A stretch of 63,998 bases of DNA, filler included, from Theionarchaea archaeon (GTDB taxonomy: Archaea > Methanobacteriota_B > Thermococci > Methanofastidiosales > SZ-28-30), in assembly GCA_018992565.1 (NCBI GenBank). It is 7 parts of 7 records of this genome, joined end to end, with 100 filler letters (N's around TTAATTAATTAA, not from the genome) between each part and the next. Parts side by side here need not be neighbours in the genome. Positions count along the whole stretch, not along the records: positions 30,022 to 39,507 come from JACVGW010000093.1; 6 more parts are not named here. One strand, given 5' to 3'. A program made the translations under genes and the position numbers. The notes beneath the pieces are model-generated. The model did not search any database, was not told the origin of the DNA, and saw only the letters and a program-made list of their open reading frames with translations. Below, piece by piece: positions 5,540 through 57,952 of the stretch (positions are counted from its first letter, which is position 1; the number at the start of each line of letters is the position of its first letter).

Positions 5540-6322
5540 ATGGAACTACGTGTATTGCACCGGGGAGACGACAACGTCCGATTTGTCATAGAAGGAGTAA
5601 GTGCTGCCTTTGTCAATGGGCTGCGCAGGACATTAGTCAGTGGAATCCCCACGTTTGCTGTGGATTACGTGATGTTTTATGCCAATACCTCCCCTCTCTA
5701 TGATGAGATCATTGCCCATCGTCTGGGAATGGTCCCCCTGACCACTGAGACCACCCGCTACATCCCCAAGGACCAGTGCTGCCAGGACGGGTGTGAGAAA
5801 TGCTCTGTCACCTTGAGCCTCTCTAAAGAGGGTCCCTGCACAGTAATGTCGGGAGATCTTATCAGTGAGGATTCAGATGTGGTTCCCGTCTTTGAGAATA
5901 TCCCACTGGTGAAACTGGGACCAGATCAGAAGCTGACTCTCAATGCTATTGCACGCATGGGGTATGCCAGAGACCATGCCAAGTGGCAGGCAGCCTTAGC
6001 CTCTTTCCAGCACGTGGCCCATATCACTGTTGACACTGATATGTGCGATGTGGGAGGAGCCTGCATCAAGGAATGTCCCCGGGGAGTCTTGGATGTCATG
6101 GGTGATGAGTTGGTTCCCAAGTACCTGTACAACTGTACTCTGTGTGGGGCGTGCACAGATGTATGCGATTTTGATGCTATAAAAGTAGAACCGGTAGAAG
6201 ATAGCTTTATCTTTACACTGGAATCATTCGGCAACATGTCCATTGATGCCTTGATAGAAGAAGTAGTCCGCATTTTCAATGGGAAGGCAGATTCATTGTT
6301 GGAAGAAGTGGAAAAGCTGTAG
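5540..6322 (+). CDS. rpoD: RNA polymerase subunit D (Rpo3) with ferredoxin-like insert
   Basis: NGLRR, YDEIIAHRLGMVPL, HAKWQ, CTLCGACTDVC; position in the operon. Confidence 0.97.
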   Translation: MELRVLHRGDDNVRFVIEGVSAAFVNGLRRTLVSGIPTFAVDYVMFYANTSPLYDEIIAHRLGMVPLTTETTRYIPKDQCCQDGCEKCSVTLSLSKEGPCTVMSGDLISEDSDVVPVFENIPLVKLGPDQKLTLNAIARMGYARDHAKWQAALASFQHVAHITVDTDMCDVGGACIKECPRGVLDVMGDELVPKYLYNCTLCGACTDVCDFDAIKVEPVEDSFIFTLESFGNMSIDALIEEVVRIFNGKADSLLEEVEKL

Positions 6323-9959: not shown

Positions 9960-10059
9960 NNNNNNNNNNNNNNNNNNNNNNNNNNNNNNNNNNNNNNNNN
10001 NNNTTAATTAATTAANNNNNNNNNNNNNNNNNNNNNNNNNNNNNNNNNNNNNNNNNNNN
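9960..10059. other. Artificial contig linker (also 19997-20096, 29922-30021, 39508-39607, 48697-48796, 57853-57952)
   Basis: 100-nt N block containing TTAATTAATTAA (stops in all six frames). Gaps 33368-33467 and 62541-62640 are plain 100-N scaffold gaps. Confidence 0.97.
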
Positions 10060-11213
10060 TTATTCATGACCCGGGCAAGGCTGAGTATTCTGTTAATGTC
10101 ACCTTCAGATACTCCTGTTCTGGCAGCAATGGACTTGAGCAGGCGATGTATCTGCAGAATACCCACTCTGCAGGGAACACAGAGTCCACAGGATTCGCGC
10201 ATAAAGAACTCCATAATACCAACCAGGACGTCCAGGATATTGGTATCGCAATCCAGAACTACCACAACGCCTGAACCGAGCTGGGCATTCACCTGGTTCA
10301 GATGTTCAAAACTCAGAGGAACACTGAGGTTCTCTTTTCCCAAGAATGTCCCTGCAGCAGCTCCTCCCACCAGGACTGCCTTCAGCGTTTTCCCTTTTTT
10401 TATTCCGCCTGCATGGGTTAGAATGAGGGTTTCCAGAGAAGTCCCCATGGGCAGTTCATAACATCCAGGTCTTCTAACTGCACCTGAAACGGGAAAGAGC
10501 TTGGTGCCAGTAGACTGCGGCGTTCCTACTGAAGAGAACCACTTGCTGCCACCTGCAATGATCGCCGGTATGGTGGCCAGTGTTTCTACATTATTGACCA
10601 CAGTGGGCTTACCGAATAATCCCCTGGACGTGGGATAGGGGGGTCTGATACGGGGATTCCCTCTTTTCCCTTCCAGAGAGGATATCAGGGCTGTTTCCTC
10701 TCCACACACATAGGAGCCAGCTCCCGCTCTCACTTTAATGTCAAAGCAGAAGTCAGAGCCAGCTATCTTGTTCCCCAGGAAGTGATGCTTCCGTGCGTCA
10801 GCACAGGCCTCGTCAAGCAGGTTCAGGCAGTGTGAATACTCTCCCCGCACGTATATGAACCCGTGAGAAGCACCCACTGCATACCCTGCAATGGCAATTC
10901 CTTCAATCAGTTTGTGAGGGTCTCCTTCCATGATGAGGCGGTCTTTGAATGCCCCCGGTTCACCCTCATCTGCATTGGCTACAACATAGGCGGTGTCCTT
11001 CCGAGAGGCTGCATATCGCCATTTTGTCCCTGTGGGAAACCCTGCTCCCCCTCTTCCGCGGAGTTTGGAATCTTCCACTTCTCTTATCACAGATTCAGGA
11101 TCTCTGGTCAGGCATTCCTTCAGAGCCTCATACCCTCCTTTCCCTGTGTATTCTCTTACAGACGCAGGGGTTTCATAACTGCCCACATTGTTGAGAACGA
11201 TCTGTTCATTCAT
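10060..11213 (-). CDS. NuoF/HydB-like NADH-binding flavoprotein (3' truncated by contig end)
   Basis: LRGRGGAGFPTG, NADEGEPGAFKDR, GAGSYVCGEETAL, ESCGLCVPCRVG. Confidence 0.93.
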
Positions 11214-19996: not shown

Positions 19997-20136
19997 NNNN
20001 NNNNNNNNNNNNNNNNNNNNNNNNNNNNNNNNNNNNNNNNTTAATTAATTAANNNNNNNNNNNNNNNNNNNNNNNNNNNNNNNNNNNNNNNNNNNNGAAA
20101 CAAAGAACCTCCCACCAAAAAGTTAAAATCCACACT

Positions 20137-29917: not shown

Positions 29918-30021
29918 TTTGNNNNNNNNNNNNNNNNNNNNNNNNNNNNNNNNNNNNNNNNNNNNTTAATTAATTAANNNNNNNNNNNNNNNNNNNNNNN
30001 NNNNNNNNNNNNNNNNNNNNN

Positions 30022-30609
30022 CCTGAAAACCCCGAAAACAGTGCCATATCCGCAGGTAGCCAGAGAGCCTGCATGACAGTGAGTAAGAATTTTATATATA
30101 CTTCCATCTTTTGGCTTACTATTCTTGAAGATTTTCAGTGCGTGTTCGCCAATCATCTTATTTGCCCTAATGTCTTCTTCAACTATCTTTTCAGCCTCTT
30201 CCAAAGCTATGTGTTTCAGTCTCTCGACTCCAGACCCTTTACCTTCCCGTAACGCGTCAAGTACTCTATTTACACCCCAACCCAAATTGACTGCAGTAGG
30301 TCGAATGCCAGTAATCTCCTTCACTTCACCCATTTTCTCAAAAAATTCTTCTTCAGTACCTTCACAACGCTGTGCTTCAAGAGCCAGGGCATATGCACCA
30401 GCAGCACCCAGTGCAGGAGCCCCCCTAATCCTTAACACAGAAATAGCCTCTTCTATGCATTTCCAGGTATTACATTCAATAATTTCTACTCTGTCAGGAA
30501 GGCATGTTTGATCAATCATTTTCACAACCTTCTTTTCCCGATCCCACCAAATGGTCATTGGCACTTCCCAATCAGGAAGCCTCCTGACATCCTCGCCTAT
30601 TTTAATCAT
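30022..30609 (-). CDS. mtnA: Methylthioribose-1-phosphate isomerase (3' truncated)
   Basis: IDQTCLP, IRGAPALG, RPTAVNL, LTHCHAGSLAT. Confidence 0.88.
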
Positions 30610-30762
30610 GGTTTAATCCTTATTAGGTCCATTTAAAAGTTTGGTTAATTGTACCTATCTCATTTTGTCAGTCCTTGCGCCTTGGTGTTTCTGCAGCTAG
30701 ATAGTTCAATCTCCACAAAACAAAGAAAAGAAAGATTCAAAAACAAAAGCTATTGAGGTGGA

Positions 30763-31065
30763 CTACTTCGACATGTAGATCTCAATTGACGACACGTTGG
30801 ATACTGAGCCATCTTCTCGCTTGACTTCTTCAGTGCCAGTTTTAATGTCATCAATATTGAGCTCCTGTATGAACTTGTTTCTCACGATCTCAGATACGTC
30901 AACAGCCTTGGAAATTGCTCTTCCTCTGGCCTTAAGTACCACCTTATTCGAGTTTCCTGTGTTGAACTGAGTTACGGCAGCGAGCACGTAGCTCATCACC
31001 GGTTTCCTACCGATGTACACAACGTCTTCATCTTTCACTTCTTGCTTTGATTTCTTCTCTGGCAT
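30763..31065 (-). CDS. albA: DNA/RNA-binding protein Alba
   Basis: [43 protein letters not shown] before ATG 31065. Confidence 0.97.
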
Positions 31066-31365
31066 GCAAACACCTCGAATCTCCATTTGACCTTTACATA
31101 TAAACCTTTCTATTAACATGGTAGCTTTTGATACTTCCGGAAACCAATTCCCTGCCATTAACTCCGTCGTTCTAAGCTCTCCCCAATACCTTCCAACTCA
31201 TTTTCGTGATTTTCGCAACTTTTCATCTCGAAAGCTACTATCGCAACCGAAAGTTTTATAAAGGGGAAGCTTCTATTATAATAGTAAGTTGGACATACCA
31301 GACGAGCCAACTTATCGCATGCTCCAATCCTTTCCTCCCTTTCTTCCCTTTTTTTCGAAATCTCT

Positions 31366-31707
31366 TCAACGGGTATCCGTAAGGTTCTTTGCTCTATGCT
31401 TCTTTTCATGGACAAAGGGGATGCGCATGACATTTCCACAATCCAGGCAGGTGACTACCACTTTCCCATTCCTTGTTCTCACCCTGCAGTTATCCCCATG
31501 CACCAAGAAGTGATGGCATCTCCTGCAGAACCGCCGTTTCAAATGGCGAGGTATACGAACTCTGGTGCGCATTGAAATATTCCTGACAATCTCCATGTAC
31601 CTGTGGGCTCTGTCAGGGTGAGATGAGTAGGCTTCATCAGCCAATTCAAAGAGGTTCTCTATGCTCTCTCTGGCTAGAGACTGGATTCTTCGCTTTCTCC
31701 ATCTCAT
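31366..31707 (-). CDS. rnp4: RNase P protein subunit Rpp21
   Basis: KRRFCRRC, CRVR, TCLDCG. Confidence 0.93.
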   Translation of the reverse strand: MRWRKRRIQSLARESIENLFELADEAYSSHPDRAHRYMEIVRNISMRTRVRIPRHLKRRFCRRCHHFLVHGDNCRVRTRNGKVVVTCLDCGNVMRIPFVHEKKHRAKNLTDTR

Positions 31708-32318
31708 AGAAGTTCATACCTCACTAAAATCTCATTGACCACTGTCCATGCAGGCAGGTGATATTCTGTTATCGCGACCTTTGGATGGGAGAGCTCAGTC
31801 AAAAACCCACCGTGAGGGAATCCTCCCACCACACAAACAGCATCTTTCTGGATCTTGAAGGGGCTGCCACCCCTTTCTAGGACCACTTTCTCACCGGGCA
31901 ACTCCTCCAGAATCTCTGCCAGGGACTTCTCTTCAACCTTCAAGAAATTCTGGATGGAGCCCTTCTCCAGCAATTGTTCAAATAGTCCACAAAATCGATT
32001 GTAACTCCTGGGAATTCTCGTTTCGGGATTCACCCAAATACAATAATCATTATACGTATGTATATACAGGGTCAGATCTCCTTTTCTGGCCACCACAGAC
32101 TCCAGAGCACACAACAAGATGACATGCACGATATCAGGCCGTCCTCTCCTTTCTGCATCATCCAGAGTCTTCATAGCAGCATGATGGAAATTCGAATCCA
32201 GTAACATGGCTCCGGGAGGTTTCCCTCTCTTTCTTGCTGATCTGAGTACGACAGGATGATTGGCTATGGACAAAGGAACCAATTCCAGGGCAGCTTCTCC
32301 TACAACTAAGGTCAGCAT
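31704..32318 (-). CDS. nep1: 16S rRNA pseudouridine methyltransferase Nep1
   Basis: LLDSNFHH, RGRPDIVH, RIPRSYNRFCGLFEQL, GGFPHG. Confidence 0.93.
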   Translation of the reverse strand: MLTLVVGEAALELVPLSIANHPVVLRSARKRGKPPGAMLLDSNFHHAAMKTLDDAERRGRPDIVHVILLCALESVVARKGDLTLYIHTYNDYCIWVNPETRIPRSYNRFCGLFEQLLEKGSIQNFLKVEEKSLAEILEELPGEKVVLERGGSPFKIQKDAVCVVGGFPHGGFLTELSHPKVAITEYHLPAWTVVNEILVRYELL

Positions 32319-32392
32319 GTAATGTGCTGGTTTCTGGCAAATATAAAAGTTGCCTCGTATGGTGGCTCCAATCCCTTCTTTCCTGCTGCCAC

Positions 32393-33220
32393 TCATAGCA
32401 TGGTTTCCTTTTTCAGCTCATCAATAATCTCATTCGTCGTTTCAAGAGAGAACCCATCCACCGCAAGTATATGTCTACCACTGCCACTGTCGATAGCACC
32501 AGCTCTCACAAGTCTTGATAGAATGTCATCTTCGCTTTTCAGGAGCAGTCTGTCTTCCTTGATGGAAAGATATGCCAGCAACCCGTAGACTCCCCAGTTC
32601 GAAACTGAACTCACAACCAGATGAGTAGTCTCCACCACAGAGCCAATAATATCTCCCTTGACAACTGCTTCTTTCACACTGTCATAGACGTTCCCCATGC
32701 CAATTTCGTTTCCCCCATCACCGACTCCCACACTCCAGGGAACGTCGAAAAGGACATCAATTCGTGCTGTATGTGACGATATATCCAGTGCCCTCATGTT
32801 GTAGTACCTGCCATCTCTGGCTCTTCCACACCGCTCAATAGACACCATTACAGAGGGATCTACCCTGGACAGAAGCTCTTCTCCATACTCTCGGCTCTCT
32901 TTCTCCCCAGTGACAGGAAACTCATAGACCTCAAGTGGTACTCTTGCCTTTTTCAGCACCTCATAGCAGTACCTGTCTGTCACAACCCCCACAGTACTCC
33001 CCAGGTCAGTGAGCGCTTCACCCAGCAGTACAGCCCCAGGTGGCCCATCCGTCTCACAATACCCAGAAACATAAAACCCAGTGGTTATCAAGACCGTATC
33101 CATGCGGGTTCTCAGGAAGTCTGCAGCCTCTCTGCAGAAATCCATTGGTAAGGCGTTCCTCACTTCTTTCATTCCTCTTGTATCATATTTCAGTATACAC
33201 TCCTCAATCATGGGGTTCAC
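32393..33220 (-). CDS. D-glutamate cyclase family (DUF4392) protein
   Basis: ETDGPPGA, SIERCG, GDGGNEIGMG, VSNWG. Confidence 0.85.
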   Translation of the reverse strand: MNPMIEECILKYDTRGMKEVRNALPMDFCREAADFLRTRMDTVLITTGFYVSGYCETDGPPGAVLLGEALTDLGSTVGVVTDRYCYEVLKKARVPLEVYEFPVTGEKESREYGEELLSRVDPSVMVSIERCGRARDGRYYNMRALDISSHTARIDVLFDVPWSVGVGDGGNEIGMGNVYDSVKEAVVKGDIIGSVVETTHLVVSSVSNWGVYGLLAYLSIKEDRLLLKSEDDILSRLVRAGAIDSGSGRHILAVDGFSLETTNEIIDELKKETML

Positions 33221-33290
33221 AACAATTCACTCTATATAATCTTGTTGAAAGAGAAGTCAAGATTTAAAACTTCTTCTCCCTACTGTGGCT

Positions 33291-34568
33291 ATGAACCTTG
33301 AGAGAATTTACCACTACATAGACACCCACAAGGAACAGCATTTTCAAAACCTCAAGACCCTGCTGGANNNNNNNNNNNNNNNNNNNNNNNNNNNNNNNNN
33401 NNNNNNNNNNNNNNNNNNNNNNNNNNNNNNNNNNNNNNNNNNNNNNNNNNNNNNNNNNNNNNNNNNNCCTGTGACTGCATTGTTCAACAGAGGAGCCATC
33501 AATACCAAAGGACCCACCATGACCTTCTTAAATGCCATAGAATCCATCCAGAACGTTGAAGGCGACCTTCCCTTTAACCTGTTATTGGTGGCAGAAGGAG
33601 AAGAGGAACTGGGAAGCCCCCACCTCCCTGATTTTGTCAAAGCCAGAAAAGACCAGTTAAAGGCAGATGCATGCATATTTCCCTTTTTTCTGCAGGATAC
33701 CAAGGGGAAGGTAACACTGTATCTGGGTGTGAAGGGTATTATCTACTTCGAGCTGGAGTGCTCAGGCGCATCATGGGGAAGAGGCCCCACTGAGTTTGGC
33801 ATTCATGGATCTAACAAGGCCTGGGTGGACTCTCCGGCATGGAGGTTGATAGATGCGTTATCCACTCTGACAGATAACAATGGCAATACTGTCTTGGTTG
33901 ACCACTTCTATGATGATGTGGCTCCACCCTCACCTGAGGACCAGTCACTGATCAAGAACCTTGTAAAGACCTTTGACCCTGAACCCTTCAAAGAGACAAT
34001 GAAAGTTGAGAAGTTCGTAGAAGATGAGAAAGATCCCGAAACTCTCATCAAGAAGTTGTTGTATACGTCAACGCTGAATATTGATGGAATATGGGGAGGG
34101 TACACGGGAGAAGGTTCCAAGACTCTCCTTCCTCACAAAGCAACAGCCAAGATTGATATTCGGCTGGTACCAACCCAAGAACGGGATAAAATGGTTCCTC
34201 TGGTAAGAAATCATCTGGATAAGAAGGGTTACAGCGATATACAGCTGCGCCTCCTGGACGTGGGCTACAACTGGTCGAAAGTTCCCGTCACAGAGAACGT
34301 GGTCCAGGCTATGATTACAGCATGTCGCCAGTTCGGCTATGAGCCCGAAGTGTGGCCATATCTAGCAGGAAGTGCTCCCTTCTACCTGTTCAGTGAAGTG
34401 TTACACATGCCGTACGTCATGGGTGCACTGGGACATGGAGCCAGGTCACACAGTCCCGATGAGTACATTGTTTATGAAGGAAATGACACGGTCCAAGGGT
34501 TGGATGGTGCCCAGAAATCGTTAGTAGCTTTCATGGAGGAGTGGCTAAAACAAGATGTTCCTGAATGA
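33291..34568 (+). CDS. M20/M25/M40 family metallopeptidase (spans a scaffold gap)
   Basis: RGAINTKG, EGEEELGS, LGVKG, HSPDE. Confidence 0.88.
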   Translation: MNLERIYHYIDTHKEQHFQNLKTLLXXXXXXXXXXXXXXXXXXXXXXXXXXXXXXXXXXPVTALFNRGAINTKGPTMTFLNAIESIQNVEGDLPFNLLLVAEGEEELGSPHLPDFVKARKDQLKADACIFPFFLQDTKGKVTLYLGVKGIIYFELECSGASWGRGPTEFGIHGSNKAWVDSPAWRLIDALSTLTDNNGNTVLVDHFYDDVAPPSPEDQSLIKNLVKTFDPEPFKETMKVEKFVEDEKDPETLIKKLLYTSTLNIDGIWGGYTGEGSKTLLPHKATAKIDIRLVPTQERDKMVPLVRNHLDKKGYSDIQLRLLDVGYNWSKVPVTENVVQAMITACRQFGYEPEVWPYLAGSAPFYLFSEVLHMPYVMGALGHGARSHSPDEYIVYEGNDTVQGLDGAQKSLVAFMEEWLKQDVPE

Positions 34569-34723
34569 TACATGATCTTTCCGTCCTGTGGATACAACAA
34601 CGTGGTGAGCTCCTGCAGTCCAGGAGTACCTCTCCAGCCTTATAACGAACCAACTTCTCGCAACGCGGTCACGTCTCAGGCAGTATCACTGCTGGATAGA
34701 GATTCCAAAAAGTCTGTACATCA

Positions 34724-36121
34724 CTATTTGATGTCCTGAAGAGCCCTCTTAATCTTCGAGAGAAATTCCTCATCGACAAAAGAGGCCAGCATGAGTTCAT
34801 TCTTCTCCTTCACTGCCGCATACAAAGCAATGGCCAATTCAGTTGAGTATCTGCTGATTTCACACCGTTCGTCATCCAGATCTCGCAGCCACTGCAGGGG
34901 ACACCCCCCAATGCACAGGTTCCGCGCCCAGCATGGCTCACACTCTTTTCTATTCTGGAATGATGAAAATGTCACCCAGGCCTCCACCTTTTCCGGGTCC
35001 AGCCCTCCGTGAATTGTCCCCAGTTGGAACTCTCCCAGATCTGCTGCGGGTCCGCAGGGATAGATTTCCCCCCCTGGGGATATACCGAATCGTCTCAGCC
35101 CTGCAGGGCAGAAATAGCTTTTCTTGGAGTGTTTCCACAGCTGCAGTATTTTGTTCTCAAAATTGTAGTAGGGAGGACGTATTCCCTTCATGAGCAGATC
35201 GAAACACTGAAGTGCAATATCGTGCATGTCCTCCATGTACTGGTGTTTCTGGGCTACAGATAAAGCATAGTCCTTCTTCCTGGTTTCATCCAGGTAACGC
35301 ACATAGGATAGCTTAATGTCTCGCAAAGGAAACTGGTTAAAATATGCATATACATCTTTCAATCTTCCCATGTTGGTGACAACTCCACTGACACTGATCT
35401 TGTGTTTCCCTCTGGCACTAATTAGCTTCTGCAACGCGAGAGAAACCTTTTCATGCGTCCCCCTGCCTTCAGGAGTCACCCGCATAGCATCGTGGATATC
35501 AGCAGGACCGTCAATGCTCACCATGACATCGATCTCATGTTCACAAAAAAAGTCAATCATGTCATCTGTGAGCAGGGTACCATTGGTGGTGACATGATAC
35601 GTTACCTCAGGGAACCCTCTTTCCTTTCCCACCTGGGAGGCGTACTCGATGGTGGACTTAATCACGGGGAAGTTCAACAGGGGTTCTCCTCCATAAAAGG
35701 AAATGCCAAATCCATCAATATCCTCGACCTCAGTAATGAAGTCAACTGCTTTCCTGGCTGTCTCTTCATCCATGGTGGGCTGAGAACCAGGGTTCTCTAC
35801 ATAGCAGTACTTGCAGCGTAAGTTGCACCGCTGTGTTACATTTAATGCCAGTGTGTACACTCTGGGAAGATCTTGGTAGGGAATGTATGGGCTGTCCAGC
35901 AGACCTTCTTTGTTCATATGCTCTACAGCATTCTCGATTTCCTCGTTATCGTACTCAGGATTGAGCGCAAGAATACACTCTGTCAGGGATTCTCCTCTCT
36001 GCAGGCAGTCCAGCAGCTGTGATTCCACCTTATTGACGAAGAACGCTGTGGCTCCATCAATGTCATAGACAGCTTCCCTACCAAATTCACAAAACCTGTA
36101 AAACCTGTCGCAGGATGTCAT
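34724..36121 (-). CDS. Radical SAM/SPASM peptide maturase with N-terminal PqqD-like RRE (CteB/anSME-like)
   Basis: CNLRCKYCY, FYGGEPLLN, TTNGTLL, SIDG, CPAG..YPC..CEPC..CIGGC..C; roughly 80-aa N-terminal extension. Confidence 0.92.
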   Translation of the reverse strand: MTSCDRFYRFCEFGREAVYDIDGATAFFVNKVESQLLDCLQRGESLTECILALNPEYDNEEIENAVEHMNKEGLLDSPYIPYQDLPRVYTLALNVTQRCNLRCKYCYVENPGSQPTMDEETARKAVDFITEVEDIDGFGISFYGGEPLLNFPVIKSTIEYASQVGKERGFPEVTYHVTTNGTLLTDDMIDFFCEHEIDVMVSIDGPADIHDAMRVTPEGRGTHEKVSLALQKLISARGKHKISVSGVVTNMGRLKDVYAYFNQFPLRDIKLSYVRYLDETRKKDYALSVAQKHQYMEDMHDIALQCFDLLMKGIRPPYYNFENKILQLWKHSKKSYFCPAGLRRFGISPGGEIYPCGPAADLGEFQLGTIHGGLDPEKVEAWVTFSSFQNRKECEPCWARNLCIGGCPLQWLRDLDDERCEISRYSTELAIALYAAVKEKNELMLASFVDEEFLSKIKRALQDIK

Positions 36122-36133
36122 AGTAGTTCCTGG

Positions 36134-36352
36134 TTAGTATGCAGCACAGAAAATAGGTACAATGGGCAACTTGCTCATGTTAACGTTGAGCTTCTCTCTG
36201 AATTCTGTGAACTCGTTCATATCCATGGTCTTCAGCACAGCGATTTCTTCCGCAGAAAGTCCCATTTCTCCTCCAACCCCTTCTGGGTTTGAAAAGAGCT
36301 CTTCCTGGAAAGCTGCATCCACCATGGCACGACCTAAAGCTTGCTCTATCAT
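36134..36352 (-). CDS. Putative RiPP precursor, 72 aa, NHLP-clan-like leader, C-terminus LPIVPIFCAAY
   Basis: GGAGGTGA RBS at 36357-36364 before ATG 36352; leader IEQALGRAMVDAAFQEELFSNP...GLSAEE; 12 nt upstream of the maturase. Confidence 0.88.
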   Translation of the reverse strand: MIEQALGRAMVDAAFQEELFSNPEGVGGEMGLSAEEIAVLKTMDMNEFTEFREKLNVNMSKLPIVPIFCAAY

Positions 36353-36539
36353 GGGTTCACCTCCATTTGCTTCACTCTTTCCTCCCTTAAATAGTTTTCT
36401 GCGAGGGAAGCGGAGAGATTTATGGAAGTTCACCAATGTGGAGTGGGTGCCGGTGGAGTGAGAAAGGGTTTCTCTGTCACAGAGAGAATACAACCAATCA
36501 CACGAAATATATATAAGCGGAAACAGCACAGCGGGAAAG

Positions 36540-37868
36540 ATGTCCATGGAATCTGTAACGTTGGTGAATCTGGTACCTCCCCTGAAGAGTGACAAGACAG
36601 TACCTGGAGGGCCTCTGTATATTGCTGCTGTACTGGAGGAAAGTGGGTGTCACGTGGATTTTCGCGACTATCAGATGTCAACCTATGAGAATCCATTGGA
36701 CTACCACAATATAGTGAAATTTCTTGCAGATTCAGAAGATGTAATAGCTCTTGGCTGCTTTTTTAATGTACTTCCCTTCTTACTGCCCGCTCTCCAGAAG
36801 GTAAAGGATGAGACCCCGGAGAAAACCATTATTCTGGGAGGACCAGGACCCAGTTCTGTGGCTGAAAGGTTGATGGAGGCATTTCCATGGATAGATATAG
36901 TGGTAAAGGGAGAGGGAGAGACTACTATAACTGAATTGGCTCAGGGTGCACCATACAAAGATGTCAAAGGAATTGTTGTCAGATCTGGTGAGAGTGTAGT
37001 GGCTACCCCCCCACGAGAGCGCATTCATGCCCTGGATGAAGTACCTTTCCCTGCCTATGACAAGATTGATCTCACACAATATGACCAGGCAGGGGTTATC
37101 ACTGCCAGGGGGTGTCCCTACAGGTGTACTTTCTGTGAAGTGGCATCACTGTGGGGATATCACACAGAACAGCGCAGTGTCTCCAATGTCATGGAGGAAA
37201 TAGCCCTTCTGCATGATTGCGGTGTGACTGATTTCCATATCAATGATGATACTTTTGTGTTGAATCGAAAGTGGGTTACGCAGTTCTGTCACCAGCTGCA
37301 AAATGACATAGATATCACGTGGCGGTGCCTAGGAAGAATCAACCTCATGGATGGCAATCTTCTCTCCGTTATGGCTCAATCGGGGTGCAATGGCATCCAG
37401 TACGGGATTGAATCAGGATCGGAACAGATACTACAGAGGATAGGAAAGCAGATCTCTATTCCCCAAATTAAGGAAGTTGTCTCAATATCGGTACAATACA
37501 TGGAACATGTTATTTCCACCTTTATGTGGGGATTCCCCTTTGAAACAATGGGAGATTTCTATGAGACAGTGTATATGATGGGTATCCTGAATGAACTGGG
37601 CTCTCTGGTGAAGCTACTTTTCTTGTCGCCAGCTCCCTTATCTCCTCTTTACAGAGAGTACAAGACCCAGTTACGATTTGATGAACGATTTGTTCCCAAT
37701 GTGCTGTGGGGAATTTACGAGGATAAATTCTCTCAGGAAAAGAAGAAAGAGGTATTTGATTTGATTCTCAGGTATCCCGAGGTGTTTTCTGCATTTTACT
37801 ATATTGACACACCAGAAGTGTGGAAAAAGTATGAGATACTGGGGCAAACTGGTATGCTCAGAAGGTAA
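36540..37868 (+). CDS. B12-binding (class B) radical SAM protein, probable methyltransferase
   Basis: ILGGPGP, VVKGEGE, TARGCPYRCTFC, INDDTF, GIESGS, FMWGFPFET. Confidence 0.92.
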   Translation: MSMESVTLVNLVPPLKSDKTVPGGPLYIAAVLEESGCHVDFRDYQMSTYENPLDYHNIVKFLADSEDVIALGCFFNVLPFLLPALQKVKDETPEKTIILGGPGPSSVAERLMEAFPWIDIVVKGEGETTITELAQGAPYKDVKGIVVRSGESVVATPPRERIHALDEVPFPAYDKIDLTQYDQAGVITARGCPYRCTFCEVASLWGYHTEQRSVSNVMEEIALLHDCGVTDFHINDDTFVLNRKWVTQFCHQLQNDIDITWRCLGRINLMDGNLLSVMAQSGCNGIQYGIESGSEQILQRIGKQISIPQIKEVVSISVQYMEHVISTFMWGFPFETMGDFYETVYMMGILNELGSLVKLLFLSPAPLSPLYREYKTQLRFDERFVPNVLWGIYEDKFSQEKKKEVFDLILRYPEVFSAFYYIDTPEVWKKYEILGQTGMLRR

Positions 37869-38076
37869 TGGGGGCCCCTGGAAATCTCCACTGAATATTC
37901 CCAAGTGGGAATTACCCGTATCAGAATATTCGATGCATAGTCCGGGGAGCGAAAACAAGAGGGTTGTCCATTACCAGGGTAGTAACGGGCATTTCCGTTG
38001 AATGCATTGGCCGGTCTCAGCTCCTGGGGATCACCTCGATGATATCTTTATAAAAAGCAACAAGAAACAACAGACA

Positions 38077-39507
38077 ATGAATTCCAAGCGAACCCTGGCC
38101 CTCATCCTCATTGTGACTCTGACATTTCTCCTGTGTTGTATACCTCTGAAAGCATATCATACTATGCTGTCATGGGAAGGGTTCTACCATGTCCGAATTG
38201 CGGGAAATATTGTTAACCACACGTATCTATATGACACGGGATCCTTTGGACCTGATGGCAGGGCCCAGGTGTACCCTCCGATATATCATGCGTTAGTAGC
38301 AATCTTATTGAAAGTGGTTCCTGAGTCATTGTTGACCGTATGGGCTCCCCCTTTCATATTGGTTCTTCTTCTCGCGATGTGGTACACTCTTATCTCCAGC
38401 TACTATACTCCTGCTCTTGCTTTGTTGTCTTCTCTCTTCCTTGTGGGGGTGCCTGCTTTCATTGATATTGGATTCTTGTTTTCCCCTCTGGGACTTGCTC
38501 TCATTTTGGTGGCTGCTGCTCTCTACTTCCTGAAGAAAAATTATCTCATCAGCGGGATTCTGGGTGGGCTGGTGGTCATGACTCAATTTACAGCAGCATT
38601 CTTCTTTTTTCTAGTAATTGGGGCACATATTCTCCTTGATGAAGAAAAGAGGACTTCCTTGCTGAAAATCGTGTCTCTTTCTCTGGTGGTCGCTTCTCCC
38701 TTTCTAGTCTACTTTGTCTATCATCTTCCGTCCATTAATCCAGTGCTGGGATTTCCAGAGTTGGAATACTCACTTGACAGAGTCACGATTGTTCTCCCTG
38801 CCCTGGCCATCCTCGGATTGAGAAGGGACACATTCGCTGTGTCGTTGAGTGCAGGTGGTATCCTTGCTATTGTGCAGCCCACCAATATAGTGTATGCTAC
38901 CTTTGCCCTGAGTGTGTTTGGCGCCTTTTTCATATATGATTTTCTGGTAGCCAAGAAGTGGACAGTGATAATCCTCATTTTTGTGTTCTGGTTATGTTTG
39001 ATTTCTTCCCAGGAATATGCATCGAAATTACAGCCTGCTGAATCCGAGTACCCCTCCTTTGTATGGCTGAAGGATAATTCTGCTGCAGGCACTGTGGCAT
39101 CAGGATGGTTTCAGGCGCCTGCAATAGCTGAGGTATCCGAACGTTCTCCTGTTCTGGGATTTGGATTTCCCGATGAATCCAGAATAGAAGACATGAGGTT
39201 ATTGTATCAAGGTGACAAGAGCATGCTGGACAGGTATGATGTTTCATATGTGTATTATGGGAAATTTGAAGCATACGATTATCCCGATATAGCCTTAGAT
39301 TTAGATAAGGTGTATTCAGGGAAGGGCGAATTCTACAAGAGAGAACCTCCCGTAATCTTCGTGCTCATTACCATTGATGTGGAGTGTGACGTTCCCCCTG
39401 TCCTCTCAACGTGCAAGGGAATGGAGGAGGGCCTCCCGTATATTGTTCAGGAATTGAAAAGATATGGAATTCCTGCCACTTTTTTTGTATTGGGTGAAAC
39501 AGCCCAG
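38077..39507 (+). CDS. GT-C-like polytopic membrane protein fused to a polysaccharide deacetylase domain (3' truncated)
   Basis: WEGFYHVRIA, YPPIYH, many TM segments, WLKDN; then LITIDVE...GIPATFFVLG (NodB-like start). Confidence 0.7.
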
Positions 39508-39607
39508 NNNNNNNNNNNNNNNNNNNNNNNNNNNNNNNNNNNNNNNNNNNNTTAATTAATTAANNNNNNNNNNNNNNNNNNNNNNNNNNNNNNNNNNNNN
39601 NNNNNNN

Positions 39608-41343
39608 TTTTCACAGCAGGTGAGGGCTTCTCCCACCTCACTGAGAGCAGCATGCACAGTGCCGAGCTGGACCTGTATCTTCCCCTGTTCCAGGAGGTCT
39701 GACCCTGCCAGGGAGAGTCCTTTCTCGAGGTAAGATCTGGCTTTCTGGTACTCTCTTTTCCTTTCATATACTTCTCCCAGTTTCCTGTAGAGAGAAGAAT
39801 GGCCAGGGGACGATTCACGTACGATACTGGTATAGCAGGCAATGGCTGTGTCATACTCGCCACTCAACATGTGGACCTCTCCTTCAACTTCTGTGAGCTG
39901 ATGTCTGTACTCGGGGGCTTTCAATTCTTCCAGGAGTTCCAGGAGAGATTCTGAATATCCTTCATTTATGAGCATGTCGTAGTAGTCCAGGATCACCTGG
40001 GCTGCCCTGTCATGCATGTCTCCTGCAACCAGATGGTACACAGCTTCCATGATACTGGCAGGAGTCTCTCGCTGCAAGCATACATCTGCTGCCTCGCAGT
40101 GAAGGCTTTCAGCGTCATAGAGAAGAGACTGGCAAAAAGATCGGGTGACAGCATGGTGAATGTACTTGCTGTCCACTCTTCGTATCAGGTTCTTCTTCAT
40201 TAATTGCCTGAGGACTGTTCTCACATGCGGAAAGGGACACAGTGGCTCTACCTCAGCTGCTGCTACAGGGTTCATAAAAATTGACAGAATCATCAGCATC
40301 CGTTGTTCTTCAGGGGACAGCTGGGCATAGATCTCGTCCCACAGGAACGTCTCAACATCAGATGAAGGAATCTCTTCCATCGCCAGCCTGGAGTCTTCAC
40401 CGGATGCTGCTTGACAGAGGAGTTCCACTGCAAGAGGATGACCTCCCGTCTTTTCCCATATTCTCTCTACAGACTCTGCCTGAACATGATATCCTTTCTT
40501 ATTCAACATTTCTCTGGTACTCGCTATATCCATCTCTCCCAGTCGTATCTCTGAGACATCATCGAATGCTGTCACAAACGGGGGCCTGTACCGGGAGACT
40601 ATACATATCTTTCCCCTGCATCCCTTCAATGAACCAAAAAGCTCATTCATGGGCTCAGTCATCACCAGGTGGTAATCATCAAAGAAAAAGGCCGTCCTCT
40701 CATCCCCCATTCCCTCCATGAGGAAAGCAGCGATCACCCGCATATCAGAGCCATCAGATTTCAAATAGTCTAGAAGCTCAGGATGGTTCAGAGAGGCCAT
40801 GAAGGTGGCCAGTTTTTTCACTACATAAGGTACTGAATCTAGTTCTGAAAAACTGTGCCAGAACACCTTTTTCCCGCGCTCCTTGAGCAGATGAGCATAG
40901 TATGATGCCAGGGTAGTCTTTCCTATGCCAGCAATTCCTGTGACAACGACAAATGAAAAGGTATCAAGCACTTCCAGTTGCTGGTGCCTATCAATGAAAG
41001 TGGTGGGTTCAGGGATATCAACACTAAAAATGCTCTCCAAAGAGTAGAAATTCCCTTTTTTTTCTGGATTGTACTGCACGTGTACTCCTTCTGCACGTAT
41101 CTGGATGCTGATGGCATCAACCTCCAGGAAATATACTTTAATATTCCTATCCTTGTAGATCCACTCTCCCCTGACAATCCCTACCCGTTCAAGCTGAGAG
41201 AGCTTCCTGGCTATCTCGGTTTCTCCCTTATGAAGAATTGTAGCTATTTTGCGGCAGTGGAGGGGCTGAGTCTTTAAGAGGAGGAGAATGGCCACTGTTG
41301 TCTTGTTGGCGAGAAGCTTCGTGACAGCAAGTTCCTTGCTCAT
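39608..41343 (-). CDS. wHTH-NTPase-TPR (STAND/MalT-like) regulator (3' truncated)
   Basis: N-terminal ArsR-like HTH, FIDR, GIAGIGKT, FFFDDYH, TGGHPLA, TPR-like helices. Confidence 0.85.
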
Positions 41344-41558
41344 TCTAGTACTATAGATATCCCGGTTTATAGCATTTTGCAGAGGAGGAGCCATTTTGCA
41401 GTAAATGAACGCACTCTGCCTGGATGCTCGATCTATCTCATGCCACTCCTGGACCAGAATTAGACAGTATTCATATCCCTTTGATAGCCACAGAAAGATC
41501 TGACGTCATACCTTCCGCGCAGATCCGATTCACTGGCTTTATGTAACCCTCAACTCAT

Positions 41559-48550: not shown

Positions 48551-48796
48551 TTACCAGTCACATGGAAGTTCATGGGAAGATTTATCTATATACCCGGGGC
48601 ATATTTCTGTCTTTTTACTGGGCAGTGCATGTAAATATGCTCAGAATCTCACTGATGAAATAGGAATTCCACACTATTTCGGATAATTAGACTTATNNNN
48701 NNNNNNNNNNNNNNNNNNNNNNNNNNNNNNNNNNNNNNNNTTAATTAATTAANNNNNNNNNNNNNNNNNNNNNNNNNNNNNNNNNNNNNNNNNNNN

Positions 48797-57852: not shown

Positions 57853-57952
57853 NNNNNNNNNNNNNNNNNNNNNNNNNNNNNNNNNNNNNNNNNNNNTTAA
57901 TTAATTAANNNNNNNNNNNNNNNNNNNNNNNNNNNNNNNNNNNNNNNNNNNN

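What the first reader, a model, noticed from the sequence alone, without database searches (positions are those of the whole stretch)
34724..37868. Archaeal RiPP locus 2: NHLP-like precursor ending FCAAY, RRE-rSAM-SPASM and a divergent B12-rSAM
Seen: the real gene is the last 72 codons of the listed 153-aa ORF (RBS at 36357-64). The leader has the pattern RA..D..F...L..NP....GLS.EE and the tail SKLPIVPIFCAAY holds the only Cys and a terminal Tyr. The maturase starts 12 nt downstream; a class B rSAM is transcribed divergently 187 nt away. Established: NHLP-clan leaders mark RiPP precursors, CteB-like SPASM enzymes form Cys thioethers, class B rSAMs C-methylate peptides, and MftA ends in CGVY with MftC acting on the terminal Tyr. 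Inference: a small thioether- or Tyr-modified, C-methylated peptide or cofactor-like product. I know of no such family from archaea. No canonical GG cleavage site precedes the core and no transporter is adjacent.
Basis: partly seen in the sequence, partly recalled or inferred. Interest (0 to 1): 0.85.

Follow-up and report, generated by a model that had tools for sequence, protein, structure and literature searches.

The report
Archaeal radical-SAM modified peptide gene cassette
A small gene in an uncultured sediment archaeon encodes a peptide with a strictly conserved tail that two neighbouring iron-sulfur radical enzymes most likely cross-link and methylate, making it an untested new family within a known kind of natural-product pathway.

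Summary
A 72-codon gene (36134-36352, minus) with its own Shine-Dalgarno site lies 12 nt upstream of a CteB-like RRE/radical-SAM/SPASM gene. It lies 187 nt from a divergent B12-binding radical SAM gene.

The peptide scores above NCBIfam's cut-off for the Os1348 family of NHLP-clan precursors. The three-gene cassette recurs in all 6 related loci recovered (3 further lineages). The last 12 codons change mostly synonymously, whereas the leader changes mostly non-synonymously.

A profile search found a wider family whose tails share hydrophobic-hydrophobic-Phe-Cys plus 1-6 residues. The terminal Tyr is fixed only in the close family. Cluster records tie both enzymes to non-Tyr tails too, so the mycofactocin-like Tyr idea is weakened.

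The SPASM enzyme keeps CteB's seven-Cys pattern, with three Cys on auxiliary cluster 1. A controlled complex model (0.80 against 0.00) puts Phe68-Cys69 beside those ligands and docks the helical leader on C-terminal helices, not on the RRE.

Most likely product: a Cys69 thioether plus C-methylation. An MFS exporter follows the cassette in the other two lineages whose contigs reach that far, but not here. No chemistry was tested. I found no publication on this family. It is a new variant of a known kind.

The parts
36134..36352 (-). Precursor peptide gene, 72 codons plus stop. Os1348-family NHLP-clan leader (residues 1-60) and conserved core KLPIVPIFCAAY (residues 61-72).
   Evidence: Translation. 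NF038399 scores 56.3 bits against a cut-off of 40. 12 homologous clusters. AF2 model: helices over residues 2-61, tail 62-72 disordered. Best fold match is the Os1348 crystal structure 6lk7.
36137..36172 (-). Core region, residues 61-72. Phe68 codon at 36149-36151, Cys69 at 36146-36148, Tyr72 at 36137-36139.
   Evidence: Codon changes against L002: 7 synonymous, 1 non-synonymous in the core; 12 and 21 in the leader. F68, C69 and Y72 are identical in 13 of 13 sequences. A Phe-Cys tail occurs in 16 of 70 profile hits.
36357..36364 (-). Shine-Dalgarno site GGAGGTGA of the precursor gene.
   Evidence: Sequence. GAGGTGAA is identical in all 4 lineages aligned.
36385..36399 (-). Candidate archaeal BRE/TATA element (GAAAACTATTTAAGG), 33-47 nt upstream of the precursor ATG.
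   Evidence: Conserved block in the 4-lineage alignment of the intergenic region. The promoter function is inferred from recalled archaeal consensus, not tested.
34724..36121 (-). RRE/radical-SAM/SPASM maturase, 465 aa, CteB-like. Radical-SAM cluster Cys C99/C103/C106. Auxiliary cluster 1 Cys C338/C356/C407. Auxiliary cluster 2 Cys C394/C397/C403/C420.
   Evidence: Pfam Radical_SAM. Best NCBIfam families are QhpD, rSAM_nif11 and PapB, all below cut-off. CteB 5wgg E 2.2e-46. All ten Cys are invariant in 49 family members. AF2 pLDDT 90.1 with an N-terminal three-strand, three-helix domain. Foldseek top hit is CteB, TM 0.74/0.78.
36540..37868 (+). B12-binding (class B) radical SAM enzyme, 442 aa, CxxxCxxC at C192/C196/C199.
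   Evidence: Pfam B12-binding 46.7 bits and Radical_SAM 58 bits, both above cut-off. Best NCBIfam family is ApyD, 183.5 bits against 750. Best PDB sequence match is 9ccb. Family alignment of 43 sequences.
36505..36517 (+). Candidate TATA box (AAATATATATAAG) ending 22 nt before the B12-rSAM ATG, which suggests a leaderless mRNA.
   Evidence: Sequence. A TTATATA block is conserved in the 4-lineage alignment. The function is inferred.

Best explanation
This is a self-contained three-gene RiPP cassette of an uncultured archaeon; its relatives carry the name Theionarchaea.

The 72-aa product has a folded helical NHLP-clan leader (about residues 1-60) and a short disordered core, KLPIVPIFCAAY.

Inferred steps:
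1. The CteB-like SPASM enzyme binds the leader.
2. It takes the thiolate of Cys69 onto the open iron site of auxiliary cluster 1.
3. It makes an S-C (thioether) cross-link from Cys69 to a nearby carbon. No polar acceptor is conserved, so the acceptor is either the neighbouring Phe68 or an alpha or aliphatic carbon of the Ile/Val/Pro stretch.
4. The B12-dependent radical SAM enzyme adds one or more C-methyl groups to unactivated carbons of the same hydrophobic core. Phe68 beta-carbon or the Ile/Val/Pro residues are the likeliest sites; Tyr72 is possible in this subfamily.
5. The product is a small hydrophobic accessory metabolite. In the other two lineages whose contigs reach past the SPASM gene it is probably exported by an adjacent MFS pump. 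In this genome no dedicated exporter or leader protease is linked.

Shown: gene structure, family membership of the leader, domain architecture and cluster ligands of the enzymes, conservation of the cassette and core, and a controlled in-silico docking. Inferred: every chemical step, leader cleavage and export.
For: - Precursor family: NF038399 scores 56.3 bits against a cut-off of 40. The A1 profile finds Os1348 (6lk7) as the best PDB sequence, E 2.6e-4, and it is also the best fold match, TM 0.63, E 0.025.
- Leader and core: AF2 gives helices over 2-61 with pLDDT above 90 up to residue 50, and a tail 62-72 at pLDDT 44-57.
- Cassette: 6 of 6 related loci (L002, L004-L008) carry B12-rSAM, precursor and SPASM in the same order. 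Protein identities to the window are 61-72%, 70-74% and 68-69% for precursor, SPASM and B12. These loci make 3 further lineages, because L004/5/6 are at least 99.97% identical and L002/L007 are 98.7% identical.
- Selection on the core (synonymous/non-synonymous codon changes): core 7/1, 4/1 and 3/3; leader 12/21, 16/19 and 14/25.
- Wider family: 16 of the 70 profile hits, including 12 of the best 15, end in hydrophobic-hydrophobic-Phe-Cys plus 1-6 residues.
- Link to the enzymes: the 'longest contig' values of precursor, SPASM and B12 clusters coincide at 10231, 6594 and 5908, and pairwise at 6284, 3285, 3843, 2833, 2325 and 1516.
- SPASM enzyme: the best families are thioether formers, QhpD 229, rSAM_nif11 211, PapB 210, CcpM 187 and SCIFF 184 bits. 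CteB is the best PDB sequence and fold match. The ten Cys invariant in 49 members map onto CteB's radical-SAM cluster, its three-Cys auxiliary cluster 1 and its four-Cys auxiliary cluster 2 (passages of PMC10177961). That paper reports substrate Se-Fe bonding at auxiliary cluster 1 in PapB and Tte1186.
- Complex model: score 0.80, best of 3 controls 0.00. The mark was reached by 58 of 80 solved complexes and 2 of 110 mismatched pairs; these counts hold only roughly because my own alignments were used. The runs share at least 54% of contacts and the partner's pLDDT is at least 78. Confident contacts include precursor residues 68-69 with enzyme residues 338-339, 358, 407 and 409.
- B12 enzyme: both Pfam domains are above cut-off. 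The nearest curated family is ApyD, which makes beta-methyltyrosine near a C-terminus (passages of PMC10635010). A relative about 570 aa long and 41% identical (P0265) carries a fused PqqD/RRE domain.
- Export: an orthologous MFS pump (72% identity) follows the cassette in L004/L006 and L008.
- Transcription, a weak hint only: RNA-library contigs at 35878-36355 and 35887-36172, with no differences from the window, bridge the precursor and the 5' end of the SPASM gene.
Against: - No chemistry was measured.
- Both enzymes score far below every curated family cut-off: 229 against 453 for QhpD, and 183.5 against 750 for ApyD. Function cannot be transferred with confidence.
- No conserved Asp, Glu, Asn or Thr acceptor of the kind used by known ranthipeptide enzymes is present in the core.
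- Pfam detects neither a PqqD/RRE nor a SPASM domain in the end pieces.
- The complex model does not use the RRE. Related complexes have been solved (CteB, SuiB, ChlB), so part of the pass may be memory.
- The link between distant precursors and the enzymes rests on coinciding contig lengths, not on DNA that I saw.
- No protease or transporter is linked in this genome. The best MFS homologue (55%) lies elsewhere, away from rSAM genes.
- Cys-less or orphan paralogues of the small gene exist without adjacent rSAM genes. One same-genus genome, 91% complete, has such a paralogue but gave no match to the cassette's SPASM protein at E <= 1e-40.
- The RNA-library contigs may come from DNA carry-over. 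A third one lies on the neighbouring peptidase gene.
Confidence: 0.6

Rival explanations
1. The SPASM enzyme makes a carbon-carbon cross-link from the invariant Phe68 (cyclophane or triceptide-like), or another non-thioether change. Cys69 would serve only as an anchor to the auxiliary cluster.
For: Phe68 is as conserved as Cys69. Cyclophane-forming SPASM families do appear among the NCBIfam hits: YhhB 106.9, GrrM/OscB 81.6, AmcB 74.9 and FxsB 73 bits.
Against: Those families score two to three times lower than the thioether formers. Several family members end in Phe-Cys-Gly, so the third residue of a Phe-x-x motif has no beta-carbon. The three-Cys auxiliary cluster 1 pattern matches the thioether enzymes.
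Confidence: 0.12
2. This is a mycofactocin-like pathway. The SPASM enzyme oxidatively decarboxylates and cross-links the terminal Tyr72, giving a redox-cofactor-like product.
For: Tyr72 is the last residue and is identical in 13 of 13 close homologues and in all related loci. No exporter or protease is linked in this genome.
Against: 12 of the 19 Phe-Cys-tail relatives aligned lack the Tyr. Cluster records tie at least two of them (contig lengths 10231 and 6594) to relatives of both enzymes. No MftC or PqqE model is among the 25 best NCBIfam families. The cassette is patchy: the precursor family matched in 3 of 133 genomes of the phylum, and one same-genus genome gave no SPASM match. That pattern fits an accessory product, not a core cofactor. 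An MFS exporter is adjacent in two lineages.
Confidence: 0.06
3. The B12-binding rSAM does not methylate this peptide. It would either do other class-B chemistry (cyclisation, ring contraction, C-S bond formation) on the peptide, or act on a different substrate.
For: It lacks an RRE and scores 183.5 bits against the ApyD cut-off of 750. BchE and HpnJ, which are not methylases, are its next-best families.
Against: It flanks the precursor in 6 of 6 related loci, and conserved promoter blocks face each other in the shared spacer. A relative with a fused RRE (P0265) shows that the clade holds peptide-modifying enzymes. By my recollection, characterised B12-rSAMs in RiPP pathways are C-methyltransferases; ApyD is documented as one.
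Confidence: 0.1
4. This is not a RiPP. The small gene encodes a stable helical protein with its own function, and the rSAM genes are merely neighbours.
For: Os1348 itself crystallised as a folded dimer (abstract of PMC7726476). The leader here is predicted to fold with high confidence.
Against: The cassette is conserved with otherwise unrelated flanks. The disordered tail is under the strongest constraint. The complex model passed its controls and places the tail at the auxiliary cluster.
Confidence: 0.03

Closest known systems
CteB / SCIFF, PapB and QhpD thioether-forming RRE/rSAM/SPASM maturases (ranthipeptide and sactipeptide type)
   Same: Same three-domain architecture and full-length fold (Foldseek TM 0.74/0.78 to 5wgg). 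Same CxxxCxxC motif and seven-Cys SPASM pattern with a three-Cys auxiliary cluster 1. A single target Cys in the substrate tail.
   Different: Below every curated cut-off, and 25% identical to CteB in the Foldseek alignment. The substrate has one Cys, a helical NHLP-clan leader and no conserved polar acceptor. The model docks the leader on C-terminal helices 441-464 and helix 322-332, not on the RRE. The hosts are mostly archaeal.
Os1348 (Pseudomonas sp. Os17) and NCBIfam NF038399, 'Os1348 family NHLP clan protein'
   Same: The leader scores above the family cut-off. Os1348's crystal structure is the best sequence and fold match.
   Different: Os1348 is accompanied by a GNAT acetyltransferase, a HEXXH protein and a SagB-type dehydrogenase, with no rSAM enzymes (section 15 of PMC7726476). 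Its core is unrelated.
ApyD, the B12-rSAM that makes beta-methyltyrosine in the Burkholderia thailandensis apy pathway (a macrocyclic peptide with a C-terminal beta-amino-alpha-keto acid group)
   Same: It is the nearest curated family. The match covers the B12-binding and rSAM core, profile positions 32-432 of 645. ApyD methylates an aromatic residue next to the C-terminus.
   Different: 183.5 bits against a cut-off of 750. The enzyme here has no RRE-bearing C-terminal part. The partner enzymes differ: P450, MNIO and a methyltransferase there, a SPASM enzyme here.
Proteusins (polytheonamide type) and bottromycin (both recalled, not from a call)
   Same: A long NHLP-type leader combined with B12-rSAM C-methylation of unactivated carbons. 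The bottromycin core is likewise rich in Pro, Val and Phe and ends near a Cys.
   Different: No rSAM epimerase, YcaO enzyme or other proteusin or bottromycin enzymes are present. A SPASM enzyme takes their place. The core is only about 12 residues long.
CrpC/CrpA of Methanococcus voltae (TIGR04463), the characterised archaeal SPASM thioether enzyme
   Same: An archaeal RRE/rSAM/SPASM enzyme that installs ranthionine links on a neighbouring gene product (abstract and section 8 of PMC13692751).
   Different: The enzyme here scores 76.3 bits against the TIGR04463 cut-off of 525. CrpA is a large Cys-rich repeat protein with C-x-x-Q/D motifs, not a one-Cys peptide. The three genes listed for the immediate Crp cluster include no B12-rSAM.

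Membership tests
NF038399 Os1348 family NHLP-clan precursor | Score at or above the curated HMM cut-off | tested here: met
   56.3 bits against a cut-off of 40, residues 2-59 on profile positions 3-62 of 63. The own-genome scan gives 55.6 bits, over the cut-off.
NF038399 Os1348 family NHLP-clan precursor | Helical fold like the Os1348 crystal structure | tested here: met
   The AF2 model (pLDDT 83.8) has 6lk7 as its best Foldseek hit: TM 0.63, probability 1.00, but E only 0.025.
NF038399 Os1348 family NHLP-clan precursor | Same maturation enzymes as Os1348 (GNAT, HEXXH protein, SagB-type dehydrogenase) | tested here: not met
   The neighbours here are a SPASM rSAM and a B12-rSAM. The Os1348 cluster is described in section 15 of PMC7726476. 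This is a feature of the namesake's cluster, not of the HMM family.
Thioether-forming RRE/rSAM/SPASM maturases (CteB, PapB, QhpD) | CxxxCxxC plus a seven-Cys SPASM motif, with three Cys on auxiliary cluster 1 | tested here: met
   C99/C103/C106, C338/C356/C407 and C394/C397/C403/C420 are invariant in 49 of 49 sequences. Nine of the ten were mapped to CteB through the pairwise alignment and the residue list in PMC10177961. C420 lies past the end of that alignment, so its equivalence to CteB C432 is inferred.
Thioether-forming RRE/rSAM/SPASM maturases (CteB, PapB, QhpD) | N-terminal RRE (winged helix: three strands, three helices) | tested here: met
   AF2 gives strands 7-12, 15-20 and 25-29 and helices 31-41, 46-53 and 59-71 at pLDDT above 90. 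The alignment to CteB starts at residue 7. Pfam's PqqD model does not detect it.
Thioether-forming RRE/rSAM/SPASM maturases (CteB, PapB, QhpD) | Score above a curated equivalog cut-off (QhpD, rSAM_nif11, PapB, SCIFF) | tested here: not met
   229.3 against 453, 210.7 against 518.7, 210.5 against 340, and 183.9 against 425.
Thioether-forming RRE/rSAM/SPASM maturases (CteB, PapB, QhpD) | The product carries an S-C cross-link | not testable with these tools
   This needs mass spectrometry or NMR of the modified peptide.
Class B (cobalamin-dependent) radical SAM methyltransferases | N-terminal B12-binding domain plus an rSAM domain with CxxxCxxC | tested here: met
   PF02310 scores 46.7 bits against 32.1, and PF04055 58 bits against 29.5. 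C192/C196/C199 are invariant in 43 of 43 sequences.
Class B (cobalamin-dependent) radical SAM methyltransferases | Membership of a characterised methylase family (ApyD, MgmA, rSAM_ocin_1) | tested here: not met
   183.5 against 750, 102.2 against 360, and 82.7 against 281.85. Relatives in the clade also peak at ApyD, with 168-217 bits.
Mycofactocin system (MftA/MftB/MftC) | MftC-type maturase and a conserved C-terminal Tyr as the target | tested here: not met
   No MftC model is among the 25 best of 80 NCBIfam families. Tyr is absent from 12 of 19 aligned Phe-Cys-tail relatives. No separate MftB-like gene is present.

The most novel reading that the evidence does not exclude
The invariant Phe-Cys dyad is turned by the SPASM and B12-rSAM pair into a cross-linked, methylated motif that has not been described. 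One example would be a very small ring between Cys69 sulfur and the neighbouring Phe68 or the residue after Cys. The helical leader would be read by the maturase's C-terminal helices instead of its RRE. That would make this a new RiPP class centred in uncultured sediment archaea (Theionarchaea, Methanofastidiosia, Hydrothermarchaeota), with a few bacterial members.
Probability: 0.3. Interest if true: 0.75.

Novelty: new variant of a known kind. Interest (0 to 1): 0.5.

Why it matters
Very few archaeal modified peptides have been characterised, and radical-SAM chemistry in archaea is known mostly from cofactor and MCR modification.

This cassette is compact: three genes and a 12-residue core. 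It is conserved across several uncultured lineages and appears in RNA libraries, so it is a practical target for heterologous expression.

Its substrate has one Cys, an invariant neighbouring Phe and no polar acceptor. That does not fit the acceptor rules of known ranthipeptide enzymes. Solving the product would therefore either extend thioether chemistry to hydrophobic acceptors or reveal a new cross-link.

The predicted leader docking away from the RRE would also bear on how NHLP-type helical leaders are recognised.

Tried and rejected
- **L003 (Bacteroidetes MAG).** The 11-residue match to the core lies antisense inside a 390-aa ORF, with no matching small ORF. I rejected it as chance.
- **Pfam on the maturase ends.** The first 95 and last 158 residues gave no hit at E <= 10, so the RRE and SPASM assignments rest on CteB homology, Cys motifs and the model.
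- **Other conserved flanking genes.** None found. The M20 peptidase, D-glutamate-cyclase-like gene and membrane protein next to the cassette here have no counterpart in the other loci.
- **A second cassette in this genome.** None found. The next-best SPASM is 32% identical and the next-best B12-rSAM 41%.
- **MFS homologue in this genome.** It lies on C65, 55% identical, and is not near rSAM genes.
- **Rfam scan of 33468-39507** at E <= 0.1: nothing.
- **Earlier findings of this scan** by sequence and by words: nothing on this peptide.
- **ESM Atlas.** The nearest clusters are Franean1_4349-type peptides at 0.86, a lead only.
- **Literature.** Nothing on this family from searches for 'Os1348'; FCAAY, IIFCG, IIFCA and PIFCAAY, where no listed paper held FCAAY or PIFCAAY and the IIFCA/IIFCG matches I could see were text noise; Theionarchaea with radical SAM; NHLP with radical SAM and archaea; ranthipeptide with archaea; and Theionarchaea or Methanofastidiosa with RiPP or BGC.
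- **RNA-library cover.** I do not read the uncovered parts of the locus as silence.
- **Gene context of the distant Phe-Cys-tail relatives.** I could not fetch their DNA.

Full report
**What is there**

The window is not one stretch of genome. N blocks join several contigs of a metagenome-assembled genome. This genome is 2.8 Mb in 154 contigs and 88% complete. The finding lies on a 9486-nt contig, window 30022-39507.

- On the minus strand, the 153-aa ORF 36134-36595 contains a 72-codon gene starting at ATG 36352.
- GGAGGTGA lies at 36357-36364.
- Twelve nucleotides after its stop codon, a 465-aa radical SAM gene starts (34724-36121, minus).
- 187 nt upstream of the small gene and on the other strand, a 442-aa B12-binding radical SAM gene starts (36540-37868).
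- The peptide has one Cys (C69) and one Tyr (Y72, the last residue).

The one exception is a small slip in the spacing of the leader pattern: seven residues, not four, lie between NP and GLS.

**The small gene is real and belongs to a named leader family**

It scores 56.3 bits on NCBIfam NF038399, 'Os1348 family NHLP clan protein', against a cut-off of 40. Pfam's Frankia_peptide and DurB-like models are hit only below their cut-offs.

A profile of the close homologues finds the crystal structure of Os1348 (6lk7) as the best PDB sequence, E 2.6e-4, followed by nitrile hydratase alpha chains and SonA-type precursors. An AF2 model (pLDDT 83.8) has five helices over residues 2-61 and a low-confidence tail over 62-72. 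Its best fold match is again 6lk7, with TM 0.63, probability 1.00 and E 0.025.

Os1348 is an 85-aa peptide of Pseudomonas sp. Os17 linked to antibiotic activity. It is encoded beside a GNAT, a HEXXH protein and a SagB-type dehydrogenase (abstract and section 15 of PMC7726476). The leader type is therefore known, but the enzymes and the core here are different.

**Conservation of the close family**

A search of 5.8 billion proteins gave 12 clusters at 63-93% identity. One is named by NCBI as an Os1348-family protein of a Candidatus Methanofastidiosia MAG. In the 13-sequence alignment the tail reads K-L-P-I-V/I-P-I-F-C-A-A/V-Y, with one outlier ending ...GVILFCQTY. F68, C69 and Y72 are identical in 13 of 13.

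Collection scans returned L002 from the genome collection. There, 58 stretches matched the pattern and 2 were confirmed, one of which (L003) I reject as chance. They also returned L004-L008 from metagenomes, where 272 stretches matched and 5 were confirmed.

All 6 loci carry the same arrangement: B12-rSAM on one strand, then precursor and SPASM gene on the other. In L002, L005 and L007 an enzyme gene runs off the contig end. The loci collapse to three further lineages, L004/5/6, L002/L007 and L008. Nothing else in the flanks is shared with the window.

Codon by codon against the window, the last 12 codons show synonymous/non-synonymous changes of 7/1 (L002), 4/1 (L004) and 3/3 (L008). The leader shows 12/21, 16/19 and 14/25. 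The tail is thus the most constrained part of the gene.

**A wider family, and what it says about the target residues**

A profile search of 1.84 billion cluster representatives gave 70 hits at E <= 1e-3, and I read all of them.

- Sixteen of the 70, including 12 of the best 15, end in two hydrophobic residues, then Phe-Cys, then 1-6 more residues. Examples are ...IIFCG, ...IIFCA, ...IIFCAA, ...IIFCVG, ...IIFCGSA, ...IIFCAVS, ...IIFCTVAD, ...TIFCGATRRE, ...IIFCGSY, ...IIFCATY, ...IIFCAAY and ...AIFCANY.
- Three more look like decayed versions without the Cys.
- The remainder are NHLP-clan leaders with unrelated cores.

In my alignment of 19 Phe-Cys-tail sequences, the invariance of F and C is by construction, because I chose the sequences by that feature. 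What is informative is that only 7 of the 19 end in Tyr.

Searches with the two enzymes gave a distinct SPASM family. Its best 58 clusters fall from 89% identity to the mid-30s at E <= 2e-74, and below them come SCIFF-type and other maturases at about 27-38%. The B12 enzyme belongs to a large clade.

The 'longest contig' values recorded for the clusters coincide across the three independent searches:

| Contig length | Precursor cluster (tail) | SPASM cluster | B12 cluster |
|---|---|---|---|
| 10231 | P0032 (FCAVS) | P0132 | P0245 |
| 6594 (each cluster on 4 contigs) | P0023 (FCA) | P0136 | P0255 |
| 5908 | P0017 (FCAAY) | P0113 | P0252 |

Pairwise coincidences occur at 6284, 3285, 3843, 2833, 2325 and 1516.

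I did not see that DNA, so this is an inference. Triple coincidences of exact lengths are nevertheless hard to get by chance. It implies that both enzymes travel with tails that lack Tyr. The common target is therefore the hydrophobic stretch ending in Phe-Cys, and Tyr72 is a feature of one subfamily only.

Names attached to members are Theionarchaea archaeon, Candidatus Methanofastidiosia archaeon, Candidatus Pyrohabitans sp. (Hydrothermarchaeota) and one Planctomycetes bacterium.

**The SPASM enzyme**

- Pfam sees only the Radical_SAM and Fer4_12 domains. It sees neither PqqD nor SPASM in the end pieces.
- The best NCBIfam families are all thioether formers and all below cut-off: QhpD 229.3 (cut-off 453), rSAM_nif11 210.7, PapB 210.5, CcpM 187.4 and SCIFF 183.9. 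Cyclophane formers score 73-107 bits, and CrpC's family TIGR04463 scores 76.3.
- CteB (5wgg) is the best PDB sequence, E 2.2e-46, aligned from residue 7 to 410.
- An AF2 model built on 49 family members has pLDDT 90.1. It starts with three strands and three helices (residues 7-71), the RRE topology.
- Foldseek puts CteB first over 455 columns, TM 0.74/0.78. After it come anSME, ChlB, TigE, SuiB and SkfB.

Ten Cys are invariant in 49 of 49 sequences. Through the CteB alignment and the residue list in passages of PMC10177961, they map as follows:

- C99/C103/C106 to the radical SAM cluster.
- C338/C356/C407 to CteB's three-Cys auxiliary cluster 1.
- C394/C397/C403 to CteB's four-Cys auxiliary cluster 2. 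C420 fits as its fourth ligand, but it lies past the end of the pairwise alignment, so that one assignment is inferred.

The same paper reports that the substrate chalcogen binds an iron of auxiliary cluster 1 in PapB and Tte1186. The enzyme here therefore keeps the feature that the thioether enzymes use to hold their Cys.

**The complex model**

I folded the maturase (alignment of 49 rows) with the precursor (19 rows), with the precursor as the scored partner.

- The score was 0.80, and the best of 3 controls was 0.00.
- By the tool's calibration, this mark was reached by 58 of 80 solved complexes and 2 of 110 mismatched pairs. The counts hold only roughly because my own alignments were used.
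- The three runs share at least 54% of contacts, and the partner's pLDDT is at least 78.
- Confident contacts place precursor residues 2-12 and 33-62 on enzyme residues 322-332 and 441-464. They place Phe68-Cys69 against 338-339, 358, 407 and 409, next to two of the auxiliary cluster 1 ligands.
- No residue of the RRE (7-71) is among the confident contacts. The tool warns that unnamed residues are uncertain.

Peptide-bound structures of related enzymes exist, so part of the pass may be memory. The helix-on-helix docking of the leader, however, is not the strand-on-RRE mode that I recall for those structures. This is a model, not a measurement.

**The B12 enzyme**

The B12-binding and Radical_SAM Pfam domains are both above cut-off, and C192/C196/C199 are invariant in 43 of 43 sequences. 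The nearest curated family is ApyD, 183.5 bits against a cut-off of 750, covering profile positions 32-432 of 645. BchE, HpnJ, PhpK and the MCR glutamine methylase follow.

The best PDB sequence is 9ccb. That code appears in a paper on the MCR glutamine methylase MgmA; I saw only the search listing.

ApyD is an RRE-containing B12-rSAM that makes (2S,3R)-beta-methyltyrosine on the penultimate residue of its peptide (passages of PMC10635010). Six relatives in the clade also peak at ApyD, at 168-217 bits. One form, P0265 (568 aa, 41% identical), carries a PqqD/RRE domain.

C-methylation of the core is thus the likeliest role. The site is open. From recalled knowledge of bottromycin and polytheonamide enzymes, beta-carbons of Phe, Val, Ile and Pro are precedented targets.

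**Context, distribution and expression**

The other genes on the contig are an IF-2B family protein, Alba, an RNase P Rpp21 subunit, a Nep1 methyltransferase, a D-glutamate-cyclase-like protein, an M20 peptidase and a membrane protein cut by the contig end. They are housekeeping or unrelated genes and are not shared by the other loci.

In L004/L006 and L008, an MFS transporter follows the SPASM gene convergently. These are the 3 related loci that extend past the SPASM gene, and they represent 2 lineages. The two versions are 72% identical. In this genome the best homologue (55%) is on another contig, away from rSAM genes.

Among 133 species genomes of the phylum, the Phe-Cys-tail profile matches in 3, all in one genus including this genome. 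One same-genus genome, 91% complete, gave no match to the cassette's SPASM protein at E <= 1e-40. It does keep an orphan paralogue ending ...TIITFCEAY, whose counterpart in this genome has lost the Cys. The cassette is therefore accessory and patchy.

Near-identical DNA is held by 18 listed runs from 7 studies, with sediment, estuary, mangrove and soil labels. Thirteen of them may be sources of this assembly.

Two RNA-library runs from one study contain contigs at 35878-36355 (478 nt) and 35887-36172 (286 nt). Both are free of differences from the window and bridge the precursor and the start of the SPASM gene. A third contig lies on the peptidase gene. This is only a weak hint of transcription, because contigs cannot show strand or ends and DNA carry-over is possible.

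The spacer between the divergent genes keeps two conserved blocks in all four lineages. One is GAAAA-C/G-TAT-T/A-TAA-A/G-G, about 33-47 nt before the precursor ATG, followed by the Shine-Dalgarno site. The other is a TTATATA block that ends 22 nt before the B12 gene's ATG. These look like archaeal promoters, judged from recalled consensus.

**Comparison with the literature**

Archaeal rSAM RiPP clusters have been predicted in bulk (passages of PMC12144867). One archaeal SPASM enzyme, CrpC, has been shown to install ranthionine links on a Cys-rich protein (abstract and section 8 of PMC13692751). Neither concerns this family.

Searches for the leader name, the tail motifs, Theionarchaea or Methanofastidiosa with RiPP terms, and NHLP with radical SAM and archaea found nothing on this family. 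Supplements were not opened.

Earlier notes of this scan report other rSAM peptide cassettes in the same genome and call it Theionarchaea. This fits the 40 SPASM-like and 18 B12-rSAM-like places I found in it.

**Verdict**

The most likely chemistry is a Cys69 thioether made by the SPASM enzyme plus C-methylation by the B12 enzyme, but none of it has been tested. The Tyr-centred, mycofactocin-like idea is weakened.

This is a new variant of a known kind: an rSAM-tailored, NHLP-clan RiPP with an unusual one-Cys hydrophobic core, possibly an unusual mode of leader recognition, and mostly archaeal hosts.

Noticed in passing
window 9960-10059, 19997-20096, 29922-30021, 39508-39607, 48697-48796, 57853-57952: Paired 44-N blocks show that the window is a chain of separate MAG contigs. 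Neighbouring 'loci' in the window, including the STAND ATPase/TPR gene at about 39608-41394, are not physically linked to this cassette.
   Followed up: yes
whole genome G000: This 2.8-Mb genome has 40 places matching the SPASM maturase at E <= 1e-10 and 18 matching the B12-rSAM. That is a very rSAM-rich archaeon, in line with earlier notes of other peptide cassettes in it.
   Followed up: partly
G000:C73 (L019 1-8170): Another RiPP-like cluster: a 368-aa rSAM, a 91-aa PqqD-like protein, two B12-rSAMs, a membrane protein, an MFS transporter and a third B12-rSAM. The B12-rSAMs are 39-41% identical to the one studied here. Matches of like identity (38-41%) are on G032:C10.
   Followed up: no
G000:C91 (L015 1103-1297 and 1482-1736); G032:C1 (L016 9143-9998): Two Os1348-like small genes without Cys (tails ...TIITFSEVS and ...AILFRVTF) have no adjacent rSAM gene. 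In the sister genome the first still ends ...TIITFCEAY. They may be decaying paralogues or may be served in trans.
   Followed up: partly
L015 4127-5740 and 5750-7018: A 537-aa membrane protein with a C-terminal tail rich in Cys-Ala and Cys-Val (ends ...CACVSCACACACVSCACACASGGGF) lies directly upstream of a 422-aa SPASM-type rSAM gene. This could be another protein-substrate and maturase pair.
   Followed up: no
window 32393-33220 (minus): A gene for a D-glutamate cyclase-like C-terminal domain protein (PF14336, E 4.7e-70) lies among housekeeping genes on the same contig. It is not shared by the other loci.
   Followed up: no
window 38002-39507 (plus): A multi-pass membrane protein with weak PMT_2 and polysaccharide-deacetylase signals lies downstream of the B12-rSAM gene and is cut by the contig end. 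It is absent from the other loci, so it is probably unrelated.
   Followed up: partly
protein clusters from contigs of length 82551, 11502 and 8653: Some contigs seem to carry two diverged copies of the B12-rSAM or SPASM gene (for example 67% and 57% identity on one contig). This suggests tandem cassettes in some Methanofastidiosia or Theionarchaea genomes.
   Followed up: no
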